Origin: Candidatus Micrarchaeota archaeon
Lineage (GTDB): Archaea; Micrarchaeota; Micrarchaeia; Anstonellales; Bilamarchaeaceae
DNA: 64,000 bases
Direction: 5' to 3'
Assembly: GCA_038046805.1 (NCBI GenBank)
Contig: JBBSVO010000003.1
Span: 93,963 to 157,962, forward strand
Shown: positions 18,189 to 62,627 of the stretch, piece by piece
Position numbering within the stretch: the first letter of the stretch is position 1
Layout of the letters: each line of letters begins with the position of its first letter
Position numbers and translations under genes: made by a program
Notes under the pieces: generated by a model
What the model was told of the DNA's origin: nothing
What the model saw: the letters and a program-made list of their open reading frames with translations, nothing else
Database searches by the model: none

Positions 18189-18328
18189 AGCCCCGTCGTC
18201 TAGAGTCTTGTGTCCAGCGTCTAGAGTTTCAAAAATACGAGACTGACGACTCAAGACACGAGACGGACTTTGGTCAAGGATGACAGGCTCTGGACCTGTA
18301 TACGTCGGTTCGAATCCGATCGGGGCTA
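18189..18328 (+). tRNA. tRNA-Gln(CUG) with about 66-nt intron in the D-loop (approx 18206-18271)
   Basis: Acceptor AGCCCCG/CGGGGCT (A1-U72, as in archaeal tRNA-Gln), anticodon arm ACAGG-CTCTGGA-CCTGT, T arm GTCGG-TTCGAAT-CCGAT. D stem GTCT/GGAT is separated by the insert. Confidence 0.8.
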
Positions 18329-22375: not shown

Positions 22376-22630
22376 GGGCCCGTAACTCAGCTTGAACCTT
22401 TTGACTTCTGAAACCTAAAGGCAAAACGTTTCATGTCAAGAACGACGTTTCGTTCTTGAGCATGATCATGAACGGTTCGCCGTTCATGACATCGAAAAGC
22501 CCTTAGGTAGCACAAGTCAAACGGTTTCTGAAATGGTAGAGTGCCGGACTCTTATGGTCCTGAGTCTTGAGTTTAGAGTCTTGGGATTTAAGAAATCCGT
22601 TTGCCAAGGGTTCAAATCCCTTCGGGCCCG
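22376..22630 (+). tRNA. tRNA-Lys(CUU) with two introns: about 140 nt in the D-loop (22391-22530) and about 40 nt at 37/38 (22555-22594)
   Basis: Acceptor GGGCCCG/CGGGCCC, D stem ACTC/GAGT split by the insert, anticodon stem CCGGA/TCCGT (one C-U mismatch) with loop CT-CTT-A, T arm AAGGG-TTCAAAT-CCCTT. Confidence 0.75.
22434..22493 (+). repeat. tandem-hairpin module type A, copy inside the tRNA-Lys D-loop intron
   Basis: TGTC-AAGAACGA-CGTT-TCGTTCTT-GAGCATGATC-ATGAACGG-TTCG-CCGTTCAT-GACATC. By eye, 50 of 60 positions are identical to 40936-40995. Confidence 0.8.
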
Positions 22631-29032: not shown

Positions 29033-29064
29033 TTTTCATCAAATTCACCCCATTTTTTATTTTC

Positions 29065-29116
29065 CCAATTGAACGGCAAACCGTTCAATGGGCGCGATGA
29101 ACGTTTCGACGTTCAT
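29065..29116 (+). repeat. tandem-hairpin module type B, left copy
   Basis: CCAATTGAACGG-CAAA-CCGTTCAATGG, spacer, ATGAACG-TTTCGA-CGTTCAT. A third hairpin, CGTGAC-TTGCG-GTCACG, lies at 29147-29163. Confidence 0.7.
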
Positions 29117-29387
29117 CCGCGTTATTTTGTTTTCAATTCCAGATCCCGTGACTTGCGGTCACGATCTCTCGATGTATTTTCTAATACATCAAGATTCCAA
29201 AATTCCTTCAGCGCCAAGTCTACCCAAAAAGAAAATTTCAAACAAAAATTCAGATTTCTTCAAGGGTCGGGCTGGATATGTGGAATTAGCACGTAGTTGT
29301 GGTTGTTATGCCCGAATCCTTGCTTGCCATTTTTATCAAATAAATTACAGTTCAGGTTCTATTTAAAGGTTTGTCACGGAAAACGCG

Positions 29388-31143: not shown

Positions 31144-31647
31144 TCACTTCCTTGTTTTCACATACTTGAACGCATCATGTCCTGCATGGACTTTAACATA
31201 ATTTTTCACGAACGCAAGAAATGCGCGCGGTTTTTCAACTACTAGTCTTCTATCACGCACCCGCGCACCAAAACCAAGCCTAATGAGAATCATCTCATCC
31301 TGTTTTCTAGGACGCTCAATATATATGAAACCCTTTTCATCAATCCCGCCCGCAGAATCAAACATCCCGGCAAGATAACTCGCAGCGTATTCATTCAGGT
31401 ATTTGAACCGCTCGAGCTGCTCGTCTTCAACATCCTGAAAGAATTTTCTATAAGCAGTATGATAAAAGTAAACGCTGTCTTGAGTGGCAAGAAGCTTGTC
31501 GCTGGTCGTAAGTCCCAGGTCTATTGCATCTTTGGAAAAAATCTCGCAAAAAGAACTCTCTCCATAAACCCCAATTCCTTCCTTTGTCCTGCGCTTGCGC
31601 CAGAAACCAATCACATATGAAAGTTCGGGAGTAAGTTTTATTTTCAT
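31144..31647 (-). CDS. LAGLIDADG-like (homing endonuclease fold) protein, first motif degenerate
   Basis: AASYLAGMFDSAGGID matches the LAGLIDADG consensus. The N-terminal LSYVIGFWRKRRT is a degenerate first copy. At 167 aa it is close to single-chain I-DmoI-type enzymes. Confidence 0.5.
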   Translation of the reverse strand: MKIKLTPELSYVIGFWRKRRTKEGIGVYGESSFCEIFSKDAIDLGLTTSDKLLATQDSVYFYHTAYRKFFQDVEDEQLERFKYLNEYAASYLAGMFDSAGGIDEKGFIYIERPRKQDEMILIRLGFGARVRDRRLVVEKPRAFLAFVKNYVKVHAGHDAFKYVKTRK

Positions 31648-32149: not shown

Positions 32150-32199
32150 CCAATTGAACGTCGCAACGTTCAATGGACCATAAAACGTTTCAACGTTTT
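32150..32199 (+). repeat. tandem-hairpin module type B, right copy
   Basis: CCAATTGAACG-TCGCAA-CGTTCAATGG, spacer, AAAACG-TTTCAA-CGTTTT. Same orientation as 29065-29116. Confidence 0.7.
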
Positions 32200-32229
32200 A
32201 TTGGTGTCGAAAATCTCGGATTTTCTCCA

Positions 32230-32288
32230 TGTCGCGAACGACGATTCGTTCGCGAGCATGTTCATGAATGCAATGCATTCACGACATC
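32230..32288 (+). repeat. tandem-hairpin module type A, intergenic copy
   Basis: TGTC-GCGAACGA-CGAT-TCGTTCGC-GAGCATGTTC-ATGAATGCA-A-TGCATTCA-CGACATC. Stems differ from the other copies by paired (compensatory) substitutions. Confidence 0.75.
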
Positions 32289-40391: not shown

Positions 40392-40439
40392 AATAAGGTA
40401 AGTGAACTACCCACGGCTGAAGCCGTGGGCTTCCACGAC

Positions 40440-40913
40440 TCAAAAGAAAGCAGATAGTTGCGCCTGTTTTGCTTCCTCCCTTGCGTCGTAAATTGACTGG
40501 TTTAATTCCTTGAACTTATGCCCTTCAATGTAATGCCCTATGGTATCTGATTTTACGTTGCTTATGCTCCTGCAAAACTTTCCGGGAGACCAGAAATGTC
40601 CTTTCCCGAATACGTTTCTCAGCCATGGAAAAGCGGCAAAAACCGAATGGCTTGACCTGCCCTTGAAAAGCCTCATGGCTTCTGACGGACTCGTATTGAA
40701 TGGCAGGGAAACGAAAAGATGCACGTGCTCGGAGGCAATTTCCATGGAGTGAATCAAAATATTGTATTGGTGGGCAGTGTTAATTATGCTCTGCCACAAA
40801 AACCGTTTCACATCACCAACCATTACTGCTTTTCTGTATTTCGGGCACCACTCAAGATGAAACTGATTTAAACCCACGCTCCTATTACTTGATACAAAGC
40901 TTACGCTAGTCAT
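40440..40913 (-). CDS. tnpA: IS200/IS605 family Y1 (HUH) transposase TnpA
   Basis: 157 aa. LEWCPKYRK..., HUH motif HVHLFV, FKGRSS, WSPGKF, and catalytic Tyr region IGHYIEGH. Confidence 0.85.
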   Translation of the reverse strand: MTSVSFVSSNRSVGLNQFHLEWCPKYRKAVMVGDVKRFLWQSIINTAHQYNILIHSMEIASEHVHLFVSLPFNTSPSEAMRLFKGRSSHSVFAAFPWLRNVFGKGHFWSPGKFCRSISNVKSDTIGHYIEGHKFKELNQSIYDAREEAKQAQLSAFF

Positions 40914-40935
40914 TTCAACAACTCCGTAGCCGTCT

Positions 40936-40995
40936 TGTCAAGAACGACGAATCGTTCTTGATCATGCTCGTGAACGAAACGTCGTTCACGACATC
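40936..40995 (+). repeat. tandem-hairpin module type A, copy next to the tnpA start
   Basis: TGTC-AAGAACGA-CGAA-TCGTTCTT-GATCATGCTC-GTGAACGA-AACG-TCGTTCAC-GACATC. Begins 23 nt from the tnpA ATG. Confidence 0.8.
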
Positions 40996-41114
40996 TCTTG
41001 GAAGGTTGTGCGCCGCCTGCGGCGGCGCGCCGGCTACAGGGCATAAAAACAGTGAAAAAATAAGAAGAAAACGAATTTTTGACATAAAAAAAGAAGGGGG
41101 TCGCTTTCATCTAC

Positions 41115-41170
41115 GCGAATGAACGGCGCTCCGTTCATTGCGCCCATTGTTCGAGCCGTCGAACAATCGG
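41115..41170 (+). repeat. hairpin pair related to type B modules
   Basis: GCGAATGAACGG-CGCT-CCGTTCATTGCGC followed by CCATTGTTCGA-GCCG-TCGAACAATCGG. A GC-only hairpin, GCGCCGCC-TGC-GGCGGCGC, lies at 41010-41028. Confidence 0.6.
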
Positions 41171-41194
41171 GACGGCTAAAGCCGTGTTGCTGAG

Positions 41195-41548
41195 TTGTTT
41201 CTGGGTCAGGTTTCCCGCGCCCCCCTTAAACCCCCTCGACTAAATTGGGGTGCAATCATATTATTTCTATTGGCATGGGCAATATCAATAAGTCCAGCGA
41301 TAGAAAGCATGCTTGGCAAAGAAGTCCGGTATAATCCGTTTGACCTGGAAAAAAATTGGCAAAGACACGTGATTGGCATTGGTTTTATTCTGGCTGCGTT
41401 TTATTATAATTTTTCTCAATTCGAATCCAGGCTCGGATTAAAAACAGGTCCATTTGACATGGGCATACTCTTTTTCGGAGCATTCGCTGTGGTCGCATAT
41501 ATCCTAAATGAATGGATTGTGATGATATCGACAAATGAATTTGCCTAG
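41195..41548 (+). CDS. small membrane protein (hypothetical), start uncertain
   Basis: 117-aa ORF with three hydrophobic helices. The ORF-track start is TTG. Confidence 0.4.
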   Translation: MFLGQVSRAPLKPPRLNWGAIILFLLAWAISISPAIESMLGKEVRYNPFDLEKNWQRHVIGIGFILAAFYYNFSQFESRLGLKTGPFDMGILFFGAFAVVAYILNEWIVMISTNEFA

Positions 41549-48589: not shown

Positions 48590-49155
48590 AAACAGACACC
48601 AGAAGAAGAGAAATAGTGCGCCAGATGGTACACGCACTCATAGGACTGCTTATGATTGCAATCATGTTTTTGCTTGGGCGGGGATATCTTATAGCATTTC
48701 TATTTTTTGTTACGATAATAGGATTATTGATAATAAATTTCAGGACAAGTTGGGGAAAATTTCCAATTGCAGAATGGTTTGAGAAAAAACTTGAAAGAAA
48801 CCATGTGAGGTTTCCCGGATACGGCTCATCGTGGTACGTGGTCGGAATAATCCTGATGGCACTGGTAATTCATGATCCAAATAAGATAGCTGCAGGAATT
48901 TTTGTTCTTGCAATTGGGGATGCAGCCTCAACCATTTTCGGGATGAACGGAACGCACAGGTGTCCGTATAATGAACGAAAGACGTTTGAGGGTTCGGCAG
49001 CATTCTTCGCATTTTCACTGATTGCGTTCATTTTCATCGGATGGAAGGCGATTCCACTCGCACTTATTGCGGCAATCGTAGAGAGCCTTCCACTTCCATA
49101 TGATGACAACATTGTGATTCCGGTTGTTGCAACCTCATTTTTCTTAATTGTTTGA
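48571..49155 (+). CDS. polyprenol/dolichol kinase-like (CTP-transferase 1 family) membrane protein
   Basis: Multi-TM, 194 aa, with GDAASTIFG...RKTFEGSAAF typical of dolichol/phytol kinase-like proteins. Confidence 0.6.
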   Translation: MGEEKIETDTRRREIVRQMVHALIGLLMIAIMFLLGRGYLIAFLFFVTIIGLLIINFRTSWGKFPIAEWFEKKLERNHVRFPGYGSSWYVVGIILMALVIHDPNKIAAGIFVLAIGDAASTIFGMNGTHRCPYNERKTFEGSAAFFAFSLIAFIFIGWKAIPLALIAAIVESLPLPYDDNIVIPVVATSFFLIV

Positions 49156-49158
49156 TAT

Positions 49159-49254
49159 CCCGAGACAGAAAAGTTTTTCCGTCTCGATCTATAGTGAACC
49201 AACGTTGTAGGATATTCGCCTGAAAGTCGGAGTTATTTAGTTGGTTCAGTATAC
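49159..49254 (-). repeat. structured repeat element, copy 2 (inverted relative to 5170-5357)
   Basis: The reverse complement reads GTATACTGAACCAACTAAATAACTCCGA...GGTTCACTATAGATCGAG...GGAAAAACTTTTCTGTCTCGGG. This matches both ends of the 5.2 kb copy, but without that copy's central hairpin pair. Confidence 0.6.
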
Positions 49255-49266
49255 AACGGTGCTCAC

Positions 49267-62496: not shown

Positions 62497-62507
62497 ATTT
62501 TCATTGT

Positions 62508-62548
62508 GTCAAAAACCACTGGTTAGAGACCAGTGGCTTGTTTTTGAC
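62508..62548. terminator. long hairpin between convergent genes
   Basis: GTCAAAAACCACTGGT-TAGAG-ACCAGTGG(CTT)GTTTTTGAC. Confidence 0.4.
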
Positions 62549-62552
62549 AGGC

Positions 62553-62617
62553 AGAGATTCCACGACTGGGCCAGGTAATGATTATGTGACCATTAGTCAC
62601 AGACTAGTGGAATCTCT
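62553..62617. other. 65-nt stem-loop with an 11-bp perfect closing stem and an inner hairpin
   Basis: AGAGATTCCAC...GTGGAATCTCT encloses TGTGAC-CATTA-GTCACA. Contains TTCCACGACT, which is also found at the left IS end (40431-40440). Confidence 0.4.
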
Positions 62618-62627
62618 GGATTTAGAA

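What the first reader, a model, noticed from the sequence alone, without database searches (positions are those of the whole stretch)
40405..41190. IS200/IS605-type element whose ends and neighbours share a hairpin plus (T/C)CACGAC signature: candidate REP/RAYT-like arrangement
tnpA (HUH HVHLFV, Tyr in IGHYIE) has no tnpB partner. It is bracketed by two similar hairpins in direct orientation: CCCACGGCTGAAGCCGTGGG at 40410 and GACGGCTAAAGCCGTG at 41171. That is the expected layout for IS200/IS605 LE/RE. The sequence 3' of several hairpins is conserved: CTTCCACGACTC (40430), GTTCACGACATC (40984), ATTCACGACATC (32277), GTTCATGACATC (22482), ATTCCACGACTG (62557) and GGTCACGATCTC (29157). This recurring flank could be the cleavage or guide sequence. 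The element also separates the two purP paralogs together with four small genes.
Basis: partly seen in the sequence, partly recalled or inferred. Interest (0 to 1): 0.7.

Follow-up and report, generated by a model that had tools for sequence, protein, structure and literature searches.

The report
IS200 element invaded by hairpin mini-elements
The flagged region is an ordinary, recently mobile IS200-type insertion sequence of an uncultured Micrarchaeota archaeon, and the "shared hairpins" belong to a separate, apparently undescribed family of 58-base double-hairpin mini-elements that has inserted into the IS, into tRNA introns and between genes across this phylum.

Summary
The coordinates, hairpins and tnpA motifs are as described. 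The element is larger than reported. Comparison with a second insertion locus puts it at window 40402-41239, plus a flanking TTAG at 41240-41243.

TnpA passes the IS200 model and fails the RAYT model. An identical TnpA sits in a 98.9% identical copy next to glyA. The end hairpin ACGGCT-NN-AGCCGT occurs only at the two ends. CACGAC is not enriched (18 found, 15.2 expected).

A dispersed hairpin family does exist, but it is a different one. Its core is GAACG-N6-CGTTC (10 found, 0.32 expected). The stem is 9 bp with strong covariation, the loop is NNCG, and the hairpins pair head-to-head into doublets.

Four filled/empty comparisons each show a clean gap of exactly 58 nt. Two of these lie inside this IS, because relatives with 82-83% identical TnpA lack both doublets. 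The other two are in a tRNA-Asp intron and beside a small repeat.

The family turns up in 34 Micrarchaeota-type MAGs (GC 32-60%) and in at least 110 metagenome contigs. It is mostly extragenic and recurs in tRNA introns. No adjacent gene recurs, so the mobilising enzyme is unknown.

The parts
40402..41239 (-). IS200-group insertion sequence (tnpA only), 838 bp. The right end on the minus strand is ...GGGTAGTTCAC| (window 40402).
   Evidence: The window and L001/L003 are 98.9% identical over 40402-41245, then diverge on both sides. The same ends are seen in L004-L008.
41240..41243 (-). TTAG (CTAA on the + strand) immediately 5' of the left end. It is either the target/left cleavage tetranucleotide or the first 4 nt of the IS.
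   Evidence: It is present at all 7 independent left junctions of 5 IS variants, and the sequence before it is unrelated in each. No empty site was found.
40440..40913 (-). tnpA, a Y1 HUH transposase of 157 aa.
   Evidence: Pfam Y1_Tnp 3.5e-29. NCBIfam IS200 103 bits (cut-off 55) against REP_Tyr_transpos 22.7 bits (cut-off 80). PDB best hits are 2EC2, 2F4F, 2XM3 and 2A6M, with no RAYT even at E<=10.
40410..40429 (-). RE sub-terminal hairpin CCCACGGC-TTCA-GCCGTGGG, 8 nt from the right end.
   Evidence: It is conserved in relatives.
41172..41186 (-). LE sub-terminal hairpin CACGGCT-TT-AGCCGT. Its last pairing base was displaced by the adjacent insertion.
40914..41040 (-). Conserved tnpA leader. 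An outer stem CTGTAGCCG/CGGCTACGG encloses a GC hairpin (41010-41028), with a GGAG Shine-Dalgarno-like sequence just downstream. It is interrupted by the type A doublet.
   Evidence: The same leader is present in L004-L010, L084, L139, L146 and L221.
40936..40993 (.). Nested 58-nt type A hairpin doublet (TGTC-hp-GANCATGNTC-hp-GACA) inserted in the tnpA leader.
   Evidence: Clean 58-nt gap in L004/L006. Aligns in register with 60 metagenome copies. Fold.
41114..41171 (.). Nested 58-nt type B hairpin doublet (two bulged hairpins, CCC...GGG and CGCG...CGCG) inserted at the foot of the LE hairpin.
   Evidence: Clean 58-nt gap in L004/L006. Collinear with the copy at 29064-29121.
22434..22491 (.). 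Type A doublet at the apex of the D-loop intron of the tRNA gene 22376-22629.
32230..32286 (.). Type A doublet (57 nt), intergenic.
32150..32205 (.). Diverged type B/D doublet, intergenic, 24 nt from the type A copy (a mosaic cluster).
29064..29121 (.). Type B doublet (58 nt), intergenic.
3973..4024 (.). Diverged doublet at the apex of the D-loop intron of the tRNA gene 3917-4204.
49150..49262 (+). Empty site for a type A insertion (insertion point 49191^49192, GATCTA^TAGTGAACC). The homologous locus in another Micrarchaeota MAG (L104) carries the 58-nt doublet.
   Evidence: 83% identity with a single 58-nt gap.

Best explanation
Two separate things are superimposed here.

(1) Window 40402-41239 is an ordinary, recently active insertion sequence of the IS200 group (IS200/IS605 family, tnpA only) in a groundwater Micrarchaeota genome. 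By homology it should move by the single-strand 'peel-and-paste' route of this family. In that route a dimeric HUH/Tyr TnpA binds the two sub-terminal hairpins (CACGGCT..AGCCGTG) on one strand. It cuts after TTAG at the left and after TTCAC at the right, releases a single-stranded circle, and reinserts it 3' of another TTAG without a target duplication. The boundaries, hairpins, catalytic motifs, a second copy and the constant TTAG are shown. The chemistry is inferred.

They belong to an independent family of miniature palindromic elements. The unit is a 9-bp hairpin with an invariant GAACG/CGTTC core and an NNCG tetraloop, which gives it polarity. Two units face each other to make a doublet of 58 nt. 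Type A is TGTC-hp-GANCATGNTC-hp-GACA. Type B is two GC-clamped bulged hairpins.

Doublets are inserted as discrete 58-nt cassettes with no target duplication longer than 1 nt. They land preferentially in or beside existing hairpin loops. Two landed in the non-coding left part of this IS before its last transposition and now travel with it.

I infer that they are non-autonomous, REPIN-like elements handled as folded single strands by a trans-acting enzyme encoded elsewhere and conserved in Micrarchaeota. The identity of that enzyme is unknown. This IS's TnpA is an unlikely candidate.
For: IS. Pfam and NCBIfam place TnpA in IS200. PDB relatives are IS200, ISDra2 and IS608 transposases. The clean ends were defined against a second locus next to glyA, with identical TnpA and 98.9% DNA identity. 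Related ISs (TnpA 82-83% identical) each sit at different loci with the same ends. The end-hairpin core occurs only at the two ends. A more distant relative, L010 (TnpA 65% identical), has tnpB downstream, which is the IS605 layout.

Hairpin family. GAACG-N6-CGTTC occurs 10 times against 0.32 expected. There are 13-14 family hairpins in 7 doublets in the window. In 79 distinct copies, 97.2% of cells are paired, all four variable pairs show every Watson-Crick type, and 0 of 500 shuffles reach this. The second hairpin of type A was not part of the search pattern, yet it is 99.4% paired with double-sided changes at all 8 pairs. Pattern hits outside Micrarchaeota pair only at chance level. Doublet polarity is [CGNN][NNCG] in 20 of the 25 doublets in which both loops are typed (38 doublets in all).

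Insertion. Four filled/empty pairs each show a gap of exactly 58 nt: two in IS versus L004/L006, one in tRNA-Asp L126 versus L013, and one in L104 versus window 49150. Of 97 metagenome type A copies, 72 are 58 nt long. The neighbouring bases are A (73/97) and T (59/97). The flanks form a stem of at least 6 bp in 17/97 cases against 2% in controls, and several copies sit inside the tetraloop of another family hairpin.

Distribution. 34 of 119 genome hits are Micrarchaeota-type MAGs. None is viral. A stop-free frame of at least 150 aa covers 24% of hairpins against 85% of random positions.
Against: No empty site was found for the IS at the purP locus, so whether TTAG is target or IS end is not settled. 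The two IS loci come from metagenome assemblies and may belong to different strains rather than one genome.

For the doublets, no transposition intermediate, no polymorphic site within one population and no mobilising gene were found. Filled/empty pairs between species could in principle be precise deletions. Copies within the window are only 63-83% identical, so there is no sign of a very recent burst here.

In all five loci where a Y1 gene is near a doublet, the doublet lies within about 400 nt upstream of tnpA. A functional link with IS200-type transposases is therefore not excluded.
Confidence: 0.75

Rival explanations
1. The tnpA is a domesticated, single-copy RAYT-like gene, and the dispersed hairpins are its REPs, recognised through a shared hairpin plus a (T/C)CACGAC cleavage/guide flank.
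For: A REP-like hairpin family is dispersed in the window and three of its hairpins lie next to tnpA. Only one tnpA is present in the 64-kb window.
Against: REP_Tyr_transpos scores 22.7 bits against a cut-off of 80, while IS200 scores 103 bits against a cut-off of 55. There is no RAYT structure hit at E<=10. A second copy with clean ends exists at another locus. The flanking hairpins are IS-specific. The closest relatives lack the GAACG doublets. The doublets lie on one side of tnpA only. CACGAC is not enriched. According to PMC6006769 only the IS200 subclass 1.1 of Y1 proteins is seen in Archaea.
Confidence: 0.04
2. The 58-nt doublets are deletion derivatives of IS200-type elements (PATE/MITE-like, one LE-like plus one RE-like hairpin). 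They are mobilised in trans by IS200-family TnpA proteins, including this one.
For: An element made of two hairpins that inserts without target duplication into single-strand-prone hairpin loops fits HUH/Y1 chemistry. Four different Micrarchaeota IS200 variants carry doublets in their left ends (window, L084, L139, L221), and in L146 the doublets lie upstream of tnpA. In all five loci with a Y1 gene the doublet lies within 400 nt upstream of tnpA.
Against: The doublet hairpins (GAACG core) share no sequence with the IS end hairpins (CACGGCT..), which differ between the IS variants while the GAACG core stays constant. The doublets lack the TTAG and TTCAC termini. They are two-fold symmetric, unlike LE/RE. 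Y1 genes were found in only 5 of about 155 doublet-bearing loci. The long non-coding LE is simply the largest tolerant target within an IS.
Confidence: 0.13
3. The GAACG hairpins are primarily functional host motifs, for example a binding or processing site for a conserved Micrarchaeota protein acting on RNA or DNA, a terminator or stabiliser, or an intron-apex signal. On this view they are not selfish mobile DNA, and their spread reflects selection rather than transposition.
For: The core and the NNCG loop are conserved across genomes of 32-60% GC, which is unusual for short-lived MITEs. They sit in transcribed non-coding places: tRNA introns, a tnpA leader, and between co-directional genes. 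Because the doublet is two-fold symmetric, either strand gives the same transcript shape.
Against: Exact 58-nt cassettes appear at unrelated sites, including inside an IS, inside another small repeat and inside the loops of their own relatives. That pattern is the signature of insertion, not of local evolution of a signal. Nothing recurrent is encoded next to them. There is no Rfam match. Function and mobility are not mutually exclusive, as bacterial REPs show.
Confidence: 0.15
4. The doublets are moved by a tyrosine recombinase acting on folded single-stranded hairpins, in the manner of integron attC or CTX-phage/Xer, rather than by an HUH enzyme.
For: Each hairpin is an inverted pair of 8-9-bp arms around a 4-6-nt centre, and type B hairpins carry extra-helical bulged bases. 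Both features define attC-like substrates (own knowledge). XerA-type recombinases are universal in archaea (own knowledge).
Against: No recombinase gene recurs near the doublets. There is no test of any kind here. The insertion points show no hairpin-like partner site in two of the four clean cases.
Confidence: 0.05

Closest known systems
IS200 group of the IS200/IS605 family (for example Salmonella IS200; the Sulfolobus IS200-type transposases in PDB 2EC2 and 2F4F; mechanistic models IS608 and ISDra2)
   Same: A small Y1 HUH transposase as the only gene. Sub-terminal hairpins at both ends and no terminal inverted repeats. No direct repeats at the junctions. A constant tetranucleotide at the left junction. 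A structured leader upstream of tnpA. Multiple loci.
   Different: The left end is long (about 325 nt) because it carries two foreign 58-nt insertions. The Tyr motif is Y-I-E-G-H (the clade majority is YIENH) instead of the Y[IV]ENQ listed for subclass 1.1 in PMC6006769. The LE hairpin lies about 55 nt from the end, inside a longer outer stem.
REP / REPIN / BIME elements with RAYT (REPtrons) of bacteria
   Same: For the GAACG doublets: short palindromic units with polarity, predominantly head-to-head dimers, mosaic clusters, mainly extragenic location, many copies per genome, and long persistence in a lineage. Compare PMC3733652 and PMC3116915.
   Different: They are found in archaea. PMC3733652 reports tagged REPs from 8 phyla, and those it names are bacterial. 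There is no GTAG tag. No RAYT-class gene and no flanked transposase gene was found. The cassette size is rigid at 58 nt. Insertion into hairpin loops and tRNA introns is frequent.
CGTC-tagged REPs of alpha-proteobacteria and others (PMC3733652)
   Same: Stems of 8-9 bp, loops of 4-5 nt, head-to-head dimers, a (C/T)GTC tag at one end (type A and C doublets carry TGTC/GACA next to the hairpin), and no associated transposase gene.
   Different: The TGTC tag is present in only 11 of 67 oriented hairpins. The GAACG core is specific to this family. Homology was not tested.
Archaeal BHB tRNA introns at non-canonical positions (ARMAN-2 / Micrarchaeum, epsilon2 splicing endonuclease; PMC3239211)
   Same: The host lineage is known for heavily disrupted tRNA genes (56% in ARMAN-2). 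All four tRNA genes of the window carry D-loop inserts, and removing them restores canonical tRNAs.
   Different: The two ARMAN-2 introns whose lengths appear in the passages I read were short (13 and 25 nt). Here the D-loop inserts are about 65-130 nt, belong to a repeated family, and carry nested 58-nt doublets at their apex.
Small palindromic mobile elements that nest in one another (yeast mitochondrial GC clusters, PMC4478555 by title and abstract only; Rickettsia palindromic elements; haloarchaeal PATEs)
   Same: Tiny hairpin-forming cassettes with no coding capacity that insert into non-coding and RNA-gene sequence and into each other.
   Different: There is no sequence relationship. Those families are lineage-restricted elsewhere. 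The comparison rests on recall and was not tested.

Membership tests
IS200/IS605 family, IS200 group | Encodes a Y1 HUH transposase (Pfam Y1_Tnp) with HUH and catalytic Tyr motifs. | tested here: met
   Y1_Tnp 3.5e-29. NCBIfam transpos_IS200 103 bits (cut-off 55). The EHVH and YIEGH motifs are present.
IS200/IS605 family, IS200 group | Sub-terminal imperfect palindromes at both ends, and no terminal inverted repeats. | tested here: met
   Related hairpins lie at 41172-41186 and 40410-40429 in the same orientation. The termini TCGAGG... and ...GTTCAC are unrelated.
IS200/IS605 family, IS200 group | Insertion 3' of a fixed tetra/pentanucleotide, without target-site duplication. | tested here: inconclusive
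   TTAG is constant at 7 left junctions and there are no direct repeats at the junctions. No empty site was recovered.
IS200/IS605 family, IS200 group | Present at more than one locus (mobile). | tested here: met
   It is found at the purP locus and the glyA locus, with 98.9% DNA identity and identical TnpA. Relatives are at different loci. Whether both copies are in one genome is unknown.
IS200/IS605 family, IS200 group | Strand-specific single-strand excision and integration (peel and paste). | not testable with these tools
   Inferred from family membership only.
REPtron (RAYT plus REP) | The Y1 protein belongs to the RAYT/TnpA-REP classes. | tested here: not met
   REP_Tyr_transpos scores 22.7 bits against a cut-off of 80. 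There is no RAYT structure hit at E<=10.
REPtron (RAYT plus REP) | The gene is flanked on both sides by the same REP sequences that are dispersed in the genome. | tested here: not met
   The flanking hairpins are unique to the IS. The GAACG doublets lie upstream only and are absent from the closest relatives.
REPtron (RAYT plus REP) | Single copy, vertically inherited, not mobile. | tested here: not met
   A second locus with clean ends exists. Most homologues sit on contigs of about 1 kb, which is typical of repeats.
REP/REPIN-like dispersed palindromes (applied to the GAACG doublets) | A short hairpin unit conserved in structure, with many copies, mainly extragenic. | tested here: met
REP/REPIN-like dispersed palindromes (applied to the GAACG doublets) | Units arranged as inverted doublets that behave as the mobile unit. 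| tested here: met
   Polarity is [CGNN][NNCG] in 20 of the 25 doublets in which both loops are typed. Four insertions are exact 58-nt doublets. 72 of 97 copies are 58 nt.
REP/REPIN-like dispersed palindromes (applied to the GAACG doublets) | A cognate RAYT gene flanked by the repeats. | tested here: not met
   No RAYT-class ORF and no recurrent neighbour was found in about 155 loci. Whole genomes were not available.
Classical MITE | Terminal inverted repeats plus a target-site duplication of 2 or more bp, matching an autonomous DDE IS. | tested here: not met
   There is no duplication longer than 1 nt at four insertion sites. No matching DDE element was seen.
Archaeal BHB tRNA intron (context of two doublets) | Removal restores a canonical tRNA, and a bulge-helix-bulge-like motif sits at the junctions. 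| tested here: met
   After in-silico removal of the D-loop inserts, ARAGORN calls Gly(TCC) at 73 nt, Gln(CTG) at 75 nt, and two tRNAs that contain a further intron. My manual reading of tRNA 22376 gives a TCAG/CTGA helix flanked by 3-nt bulges (sequence). Splicing itself is not testable here.

The most novel reading that the evidence does not exclude
The GAACG-core 58-nt hairpin doublets are an archaeal counterpart of bacterial REPINs. On this reading they are a phylum-wide, vertically persisting population of non-autonomous single-strand elements in Micrarchaeota and close DPANN relatives. They would be serviced by a conserved, not yet identified enzyme that recognises the GAACG/NNCG hairpin and inserts cassettes into hairpin loops. 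By landing in tRNA genes and in existing introns they would create and enlarge BHB introns, which would give a concrete mechanism for the unexplained proliferation of non-canonical tRNA introns in this lineage.
Probability: 0.25. Interest if true: 0.8.

Novelty: new variant of a known kind. Interest (0 to 1): 0.55.

Why it matters
The IS itself is routine. The nested hairpin doublets matter for three reasons.

(1) REP/REPIN-type elements and their domesticated transposases are so far known from bacteria. A structurally conserved, rigidly sized, phylum-wide analogue in ultra-small DPANN archaea would extend that biology to archaea. It also points to an unknown hairpin-specific enzyme.

(2) The doublets give rare base-resolution filled/empty evidence of DNA gain inside archaeal tRNA introns. 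One case is a D-loop insert present in one species and absent in another. This makes the long-standing question of how archaeal tRNA introns are gained directly testable.

(3) In practice, these elements and the large D-loop introns defeat standard tRNA finders (ARAGORN found 1 of 4 genes, with the wrong 5' end). They probably also break assemblies, so tRNA complements and completeness estimates of Micrarchaeota MAGs are likely to be understated.

Tried and rejected
- An empty site for the IS at the purP locus. Nine contigs carry the identical PurP, and all either contain the IS or end at it.
- Rfam. Nothing reached the gathering threshold except 5S rRNA. Sub-threshold hits only appeared for the IS, the tRNA region and the 5.1-5.4 kb repeat.
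- Ribozyme or C/D-box readings of the three-way type A module. I considered these by eye and dropped them: no hammerhead core or C/D boxes, and no Rfam support.
- Viral origin. Four hits in IMG/VR, all tandem repeats or chance, none a paired hairpin.
- A partner gene next to the doublets. Clustering all ORFs from about 155 loci gave no recurrent neighbour. The top clusters were an Lrp/AsnC-like regulator (8 loci) and the Y1 transposase (5 loci). Genes between the window's doublet clusters have no Pfam or NCBIfam assignment.
- The ORF at 31144-31647. It has a LAGLIDADG-looking motif but no Pfam or PDB hit, and only E=0.047 to an intein-bearing stretch of DNA polymerase II.
- A fixed target tetranucleotide for the doublets. 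The flanks of the four clean insertions share only a weak A^T/A preference for type A.
- The guide/cleavage-site pairing for the IS ends. In this copy GTGGA 5' of the RE hairpin can pair with the terminal TTCAC, but relatives have AGAAG there, so I do not claim it.
- The automatic alignment of the tRNA-Gly and tRNA-22376 D-loop introns was not clean. That 'empty' paralogue rests on my manual reading and is not counted among the four clean pairs.
- Literature searches for Micrarchaeota repeats, MITEs or mobile tRNA introns found no description of these elements. The held library is incomplete, so prior description cannot be excluded.
Full report
**1. What is at the coordinates**

The window (42.8% GC) comes from an uncultured archaeon. 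The exact TnpA protein is named by NCBI as 'MAG: Candidatus Micrarchaeota archaeon', on a 222,541-bp contig. The same protein is on Hainich groundwater contigs in ENA.

tblastn finds only one tnpA in the window, and the element has no tnpB. The flanking genes are two PurP paralogues (DUF1246/DUF1297), with the IS and four small genes between them.

**2. True ends and copies**

The exact TnpA is encoded on three further short contigs. L002 is the same locus as the window. L001 and L003 are a second locus.
- They match the window from 41245 down to 40402 at 98.9% identity, then diverge on both sides.
- Their left flank is the 3' end of a serine hydroxymethyltransferase gene (my reading of the translated ORF).
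- Their right flanks agree with each other and not with the window.

Read in the tnpA orientation, the element ends exactly at ...CCCACGGCTTCAGCCGTGGGTAGTTCAC|. On the left, the shared sequence starts at (A)TTTAG|TCGAGGGGG.

Related ISs were fetched through TnpA homologues of 65-83% identity: L004/L005, L006/L007, L008/L009 and L010. They have the same right end and the same TTAG-TCG/TTG left junction, with unrelated flanks. L010, the most distant of these (65%), has tnpB downstream. The family therefore includes both IS200-type and IS605-type layouts.

The element is 40402-41239 (838 bp), with TTAG at 41240-41243. That TTAG is either the target tetranucleotide, as in other family members (own knowledge of IS608 and ISDra2), or the first four bases of the IS. 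Nine contigs carrying the identical PurP all contain the IS or end at it, so no empty site is available to decide.

**3. Which kind of Y1 transposase**
- Pfam Y1_Tnp scores 3.5e-29.
- NCBIfam's IS200 equivalog scores 103 bits (cut-off 55). The REP-associated tyrosine transposase model scores 22.7 bits (cut-off 80).
- The closest solved structures are the Sulfolobus IS200-type proteins (2EC2, 2F4F), ISDra2 and IS608. No RAYT structure appears even at E<=10.
- Quentin et al. (PMC6006769) report that only the IS200 subclass 1.1 of Y1 proteins is seen in Archaea.
- The clade has 107 homologues at E<=1e-5, mostly on contigs of about 1 kb, as expected for repeats that break assemblies.
- Its Tyr motif is mostly YIENH (YIEGH here) rather than Y[IV]ENQ, which is a minor variant.

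**4. The proposed shared signature**

CACGAC occurs 18 times against 15.2 expected. The IS-end hairpin core ACGGCTNNAGCCGT occurs only at the two ends.

Three of the six quoted flanks are the same position of three copies of one repeat. One of the six is not conserved in IS relatives. Two belong to unrelated hairpins. The signature does not stand up as a motif.

**5. The hairpin family that really is dispersed**

The repeat finder showed a 63-nt repeat at 22431, 32227 and 40933, and a second one at 29069, 32154 and 41119. Both are built from hairpins with the core GAACG-N6-CGTTC. That core occurs 10 times against 0.32 expected, always with the same spacing. A relaxed scan finds 13 such hairpins (14 with the imperfect one at 32262) in seven doublets.

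The same double-hairpin pattern was searched in one-genome-per-species GTDB contigs.
- 34 of the 119 returned stretches are from Micrarchaeota, Micrarchaeia or unnamed DPANN MAGs spanning 32-60% GC.
- The rest are mostly high-GC bacteria.
- From my own knowledge, this lineage is far below 1% of GTDB species and has genomes of about 1 Mb.

Covariation is strong.
- In the 79 distinct archaeal copies, the 9-bp stem is paired in 97.2% of cells. Each of the four non-fixed pairs shows all four Watson-Crick types. None of 500 shuffles reaches this, and slid controls give 28-45%.
- In the bacterial hits the same positions pair at chance level.

The loop is NNCG (TGCG, TTCG and ATCG are commonest), so the hairpin has a polarity. 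In doublets, the order is [CGNN][NNCG] in 20 of the 25 cases in which both loops are typed (38 doublets in all). That is a two-fold symmetric, head-to-head pair.

Linker subtypes recur across genomes.
- Type A is TGTC-hp-GA(G/T)CATGNTC-hp-GACA.
- Type B has a GCGC-centred linker and GC-clamped, bulged hairpins.
- Types C and D have GACAGTC and GGTCC linkers.

**6. The doublets are insertions of exactly 58 nt**

(i, ii) The window IS aligns with L004 and L006 at 88% and 85% identity, with two clean gaps of 58 nt in the relatives. A type B doublet sits at the foot of the LE hairpin (AGCCGT^). A type A doublet sits in the tnpA leader (CCAAGAG^AAGACGG). The second IS copy (L001) carries both, so they entered before the last transposition and now hitchhike.

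(iii) tRNA-Asp of MAG L126 and that of L013 are 92% identical. L126 has a 58-nt type B doublet in the loop of the anticodon intron (CCGCCT^TTTAGG). It also has an extra 41-nt D-loop insert that contains a degenerate family hairpin.

(iv) Window 49150-49262 and L104 are 83% identical. L104 has a single 58-nt gap-filling type A doublet at GATCTA^TA(C/G)TGAACC.

No site shows a duplication longer than 1 nt.

- Of 97 full modules, 72 are 58 nt long and 13 are 57 nt.
- The neighbouring bases are A (73/97) and T (59/97).
- The flanks form a stem of at least 6 bp around the module in 17/97 cases, against 2% for shuffled flank pairs.
- Several modules sit inside the tetraloop of another family hairpin, for example GAACGG-A[module]A-CG-CCGTTC.

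The second hairpin of these modules was not part of the search pattern. It is 99.4% paired, with double-sided changes at all eight pairs.

**7. Where they sit**

Only 24% of the hairpins are covered by a stop-free frame of at least 150 aa, against 85% of random positions in the same loci.

They recur in tRNA genes. Two of the seven window doublets, and at least four of the 34 MAG loci, lie inside over-long tRNA genes. Three more lie within about 200 nt of one.

All four tRNA genes of the window carry D-loop inserts of 65-130 nt. After in-silico removal, ARAGORN calls tRNA-Gly(TCC) and tRNA-Gln(CTG) as canonical 73-75-nt tRNAs, and the other two as tRNAs containing a further intron. This fits the known heavy intron load of Micrarchaeum (ARMAN-2) tRNAs and its broad-specificity epsilon2 endonuclease (PMC3239211).

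No copy was found in viral contigs.

**8. Link to Y1 genes or any other gene**

An HMM built from the TnpA homologues found Y1 ORFs in only five of about 155 doublet-bearing loci (window, L084, L139, L146, L221). In each, the doublets lie within 400 nt upstream of tnpA. In four of them the doublets are inside the IS left end.

The end hairpins of these ISs differ from one another, while the GAACG core is constant. The long non-coding left end is also the largest tolerant target in an IS. I therefore read this as ISs being hosts, but a functional link is not excluded. Clustering all ORFs gave no recurrent neighbour.

**9. Mechanism**

For the IS, family membership predicts single-strand peel-and-paste transposition. 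What is shown here is the anatomy and a second copy.

For the doublets, several features are shown:
- a rigid 58-nt unit;
- selection for hairpin formation;
- no target duplication;
- a preference for hairpin loops;
- a core conserved across a phylum.

Together these point to recognition of a folded single strand by a conserved trans-acting enzyme, as for REPIN/RAYT in bacteria. The enzyme itself is inferred and unidentified. Rivals are listed with their tests: the RAYT reading, IS200-TnpA in trans, a host functional motif, and a tyrosine recombinase acting on folded hairpins.

**10. Comparison and novelty**

The IS is a new member of a well-known family. The doublets most resemble bacterial REP/REPIN/BIME elements, and particularly the transposase-less CGTC-tagged REPs (PMC3733652). 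They differ in host domain, core sequence, rigid size, lack of a RAYT, and residence in tRNA introns.

I found no description of them in the searchable literature. That is not proof of novelty.

**11. Verdict**

The lasting result is the separate GAACG hairpin-doublet family and its nesting in the IS and in tRNA introns.

Noticed in passing
window 1197-1346 (-), 3917-4204 (+), 18189-18327 (+), 22376-22629 (+): All four tRNA genes of the window are interrupted by large D-loop inserts (about 65-130 nt). Two also have a second intron near the anticodon. ARAGORN found only one of them and gave it a false 5' end (1197-1271). After in-silico removal of the D-loop inserts it calls Gly(TCC), Gln(CTG) and two further tRNAs. 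The inserts of three genes share a 5' block (A)ACCTTTTG(A/G)CT..TGAAACCT.A.GGCAAAA, so they form one paralogous intron family.
   Followed up: partly
L126 1387-1609 (-) versus L013 526-653 (-): The same tRNA-Asp in two Micrarchaeota MAGs (92% identical) differs by a 41-nt D-loop insert (GTGTAG^TGG) that contains a degenerate GAACG-type hairpin. This is a candidate case of recent tRNA intron gain or loss at base resolution.
   Followed up: partly
window 5163-5235 and 49185-49255; also L016, L073, L098, L104, L146, L161, L172, L232, L244: This is a second small repeat family of about 70 nt, with 12-bp terminal inverted repeats TATACTGAACCA...TGGTTCAGTATA (5 matches to the arm against 0.9 expected). 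It is often preceded by a GAGACAG..CTGTCTC hairpin. Type A doublets insert at its 5' edge in other genomes. There is no Rfam match.
   Followed up: partly
window 62507-62549 and 62552-62618: Two long inverted repeats lie just after a stop codon: TGTCAAAAACCACTGG...CCAGTGGCTTGTTTTTGACA, and CAGAGATTCCAC...GTGGAATCTCTG enclosing 43 nt. It is not related to the GAACG family.
   Followed up: no
window 31144-31647 (-): This is a 167-aa ORF between two doublet clusters with a LAGLIDADG-looking motif (YLAGMFDSAGG). It has no Pfam or PDB hit. The only hit is a weak NCBIfam match (E=0.047) to a stretch of DNA polymerase II large subunit (profile positions 426-545 of 1125), which from my own knowledge is a region where inteins often sit.
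   Followed up: partly
L050 2051-2323: The 5' 15 nt of a tRNA gene (GCAGGAGTAGCAAAG) are duplicated 142 nt upstream of the full gene. The interval is filled with GAACG hairpins. This is either a very large D-loop intron containing a copy of its own 5' exon, or a footprint of an insertion event.
   Followed up: no
window 40914-41040 (-); L004-L010, L084, L139, L146, L221: A leader upstream of tnpA is conserved across distant IS200 variants (CAGTAGCCG-GC hairpin-TTCCA(A/T)GAGAAGA(C/G)GCTAC(T/C)GG, then GGAG). It probably masks the ribosome-binding site, as in Salmonella IS200 (own knowledge). The LE also has a conserved GGGAAACC...GATGAAAG pair of blocks inside an outer stem.
   Followed up: no
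L137, L152, L195, L197, L207 (all from the 1,366,857-bp contig Ga0209514_10000001): One near-genome-size metagenome contig holds at least five strict type A hits. Three of them (L137, L197, L207) sit in a composite repeat (GTGACCGAAAATCGGTCAC-ATCT-typeA-CGCAAATTG...), which is BIME-like mosaic organisation. It would be a good genome for a full census.
   Followed up: no
L084 449-1130: A second, distant IS200-type element in a 35% GC Micrarchaeota MAG has a doublet that appears to sit inside the loop of its own LE hairpin (CTGCCGAC[...]GTCGAGCAG, against RE CTGCGGGCTTTAGCCCGCAG). Its tnpA is intact.
   Followed up: partly
window 40410-40440 (+): The RE hairpin region gives a sub-threshold Rfam hit to the Acido-Lenti-1 RNA motif (23.7 bits, gathering score 37). 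It is probably only hairpin similarity.
   Followed up: no
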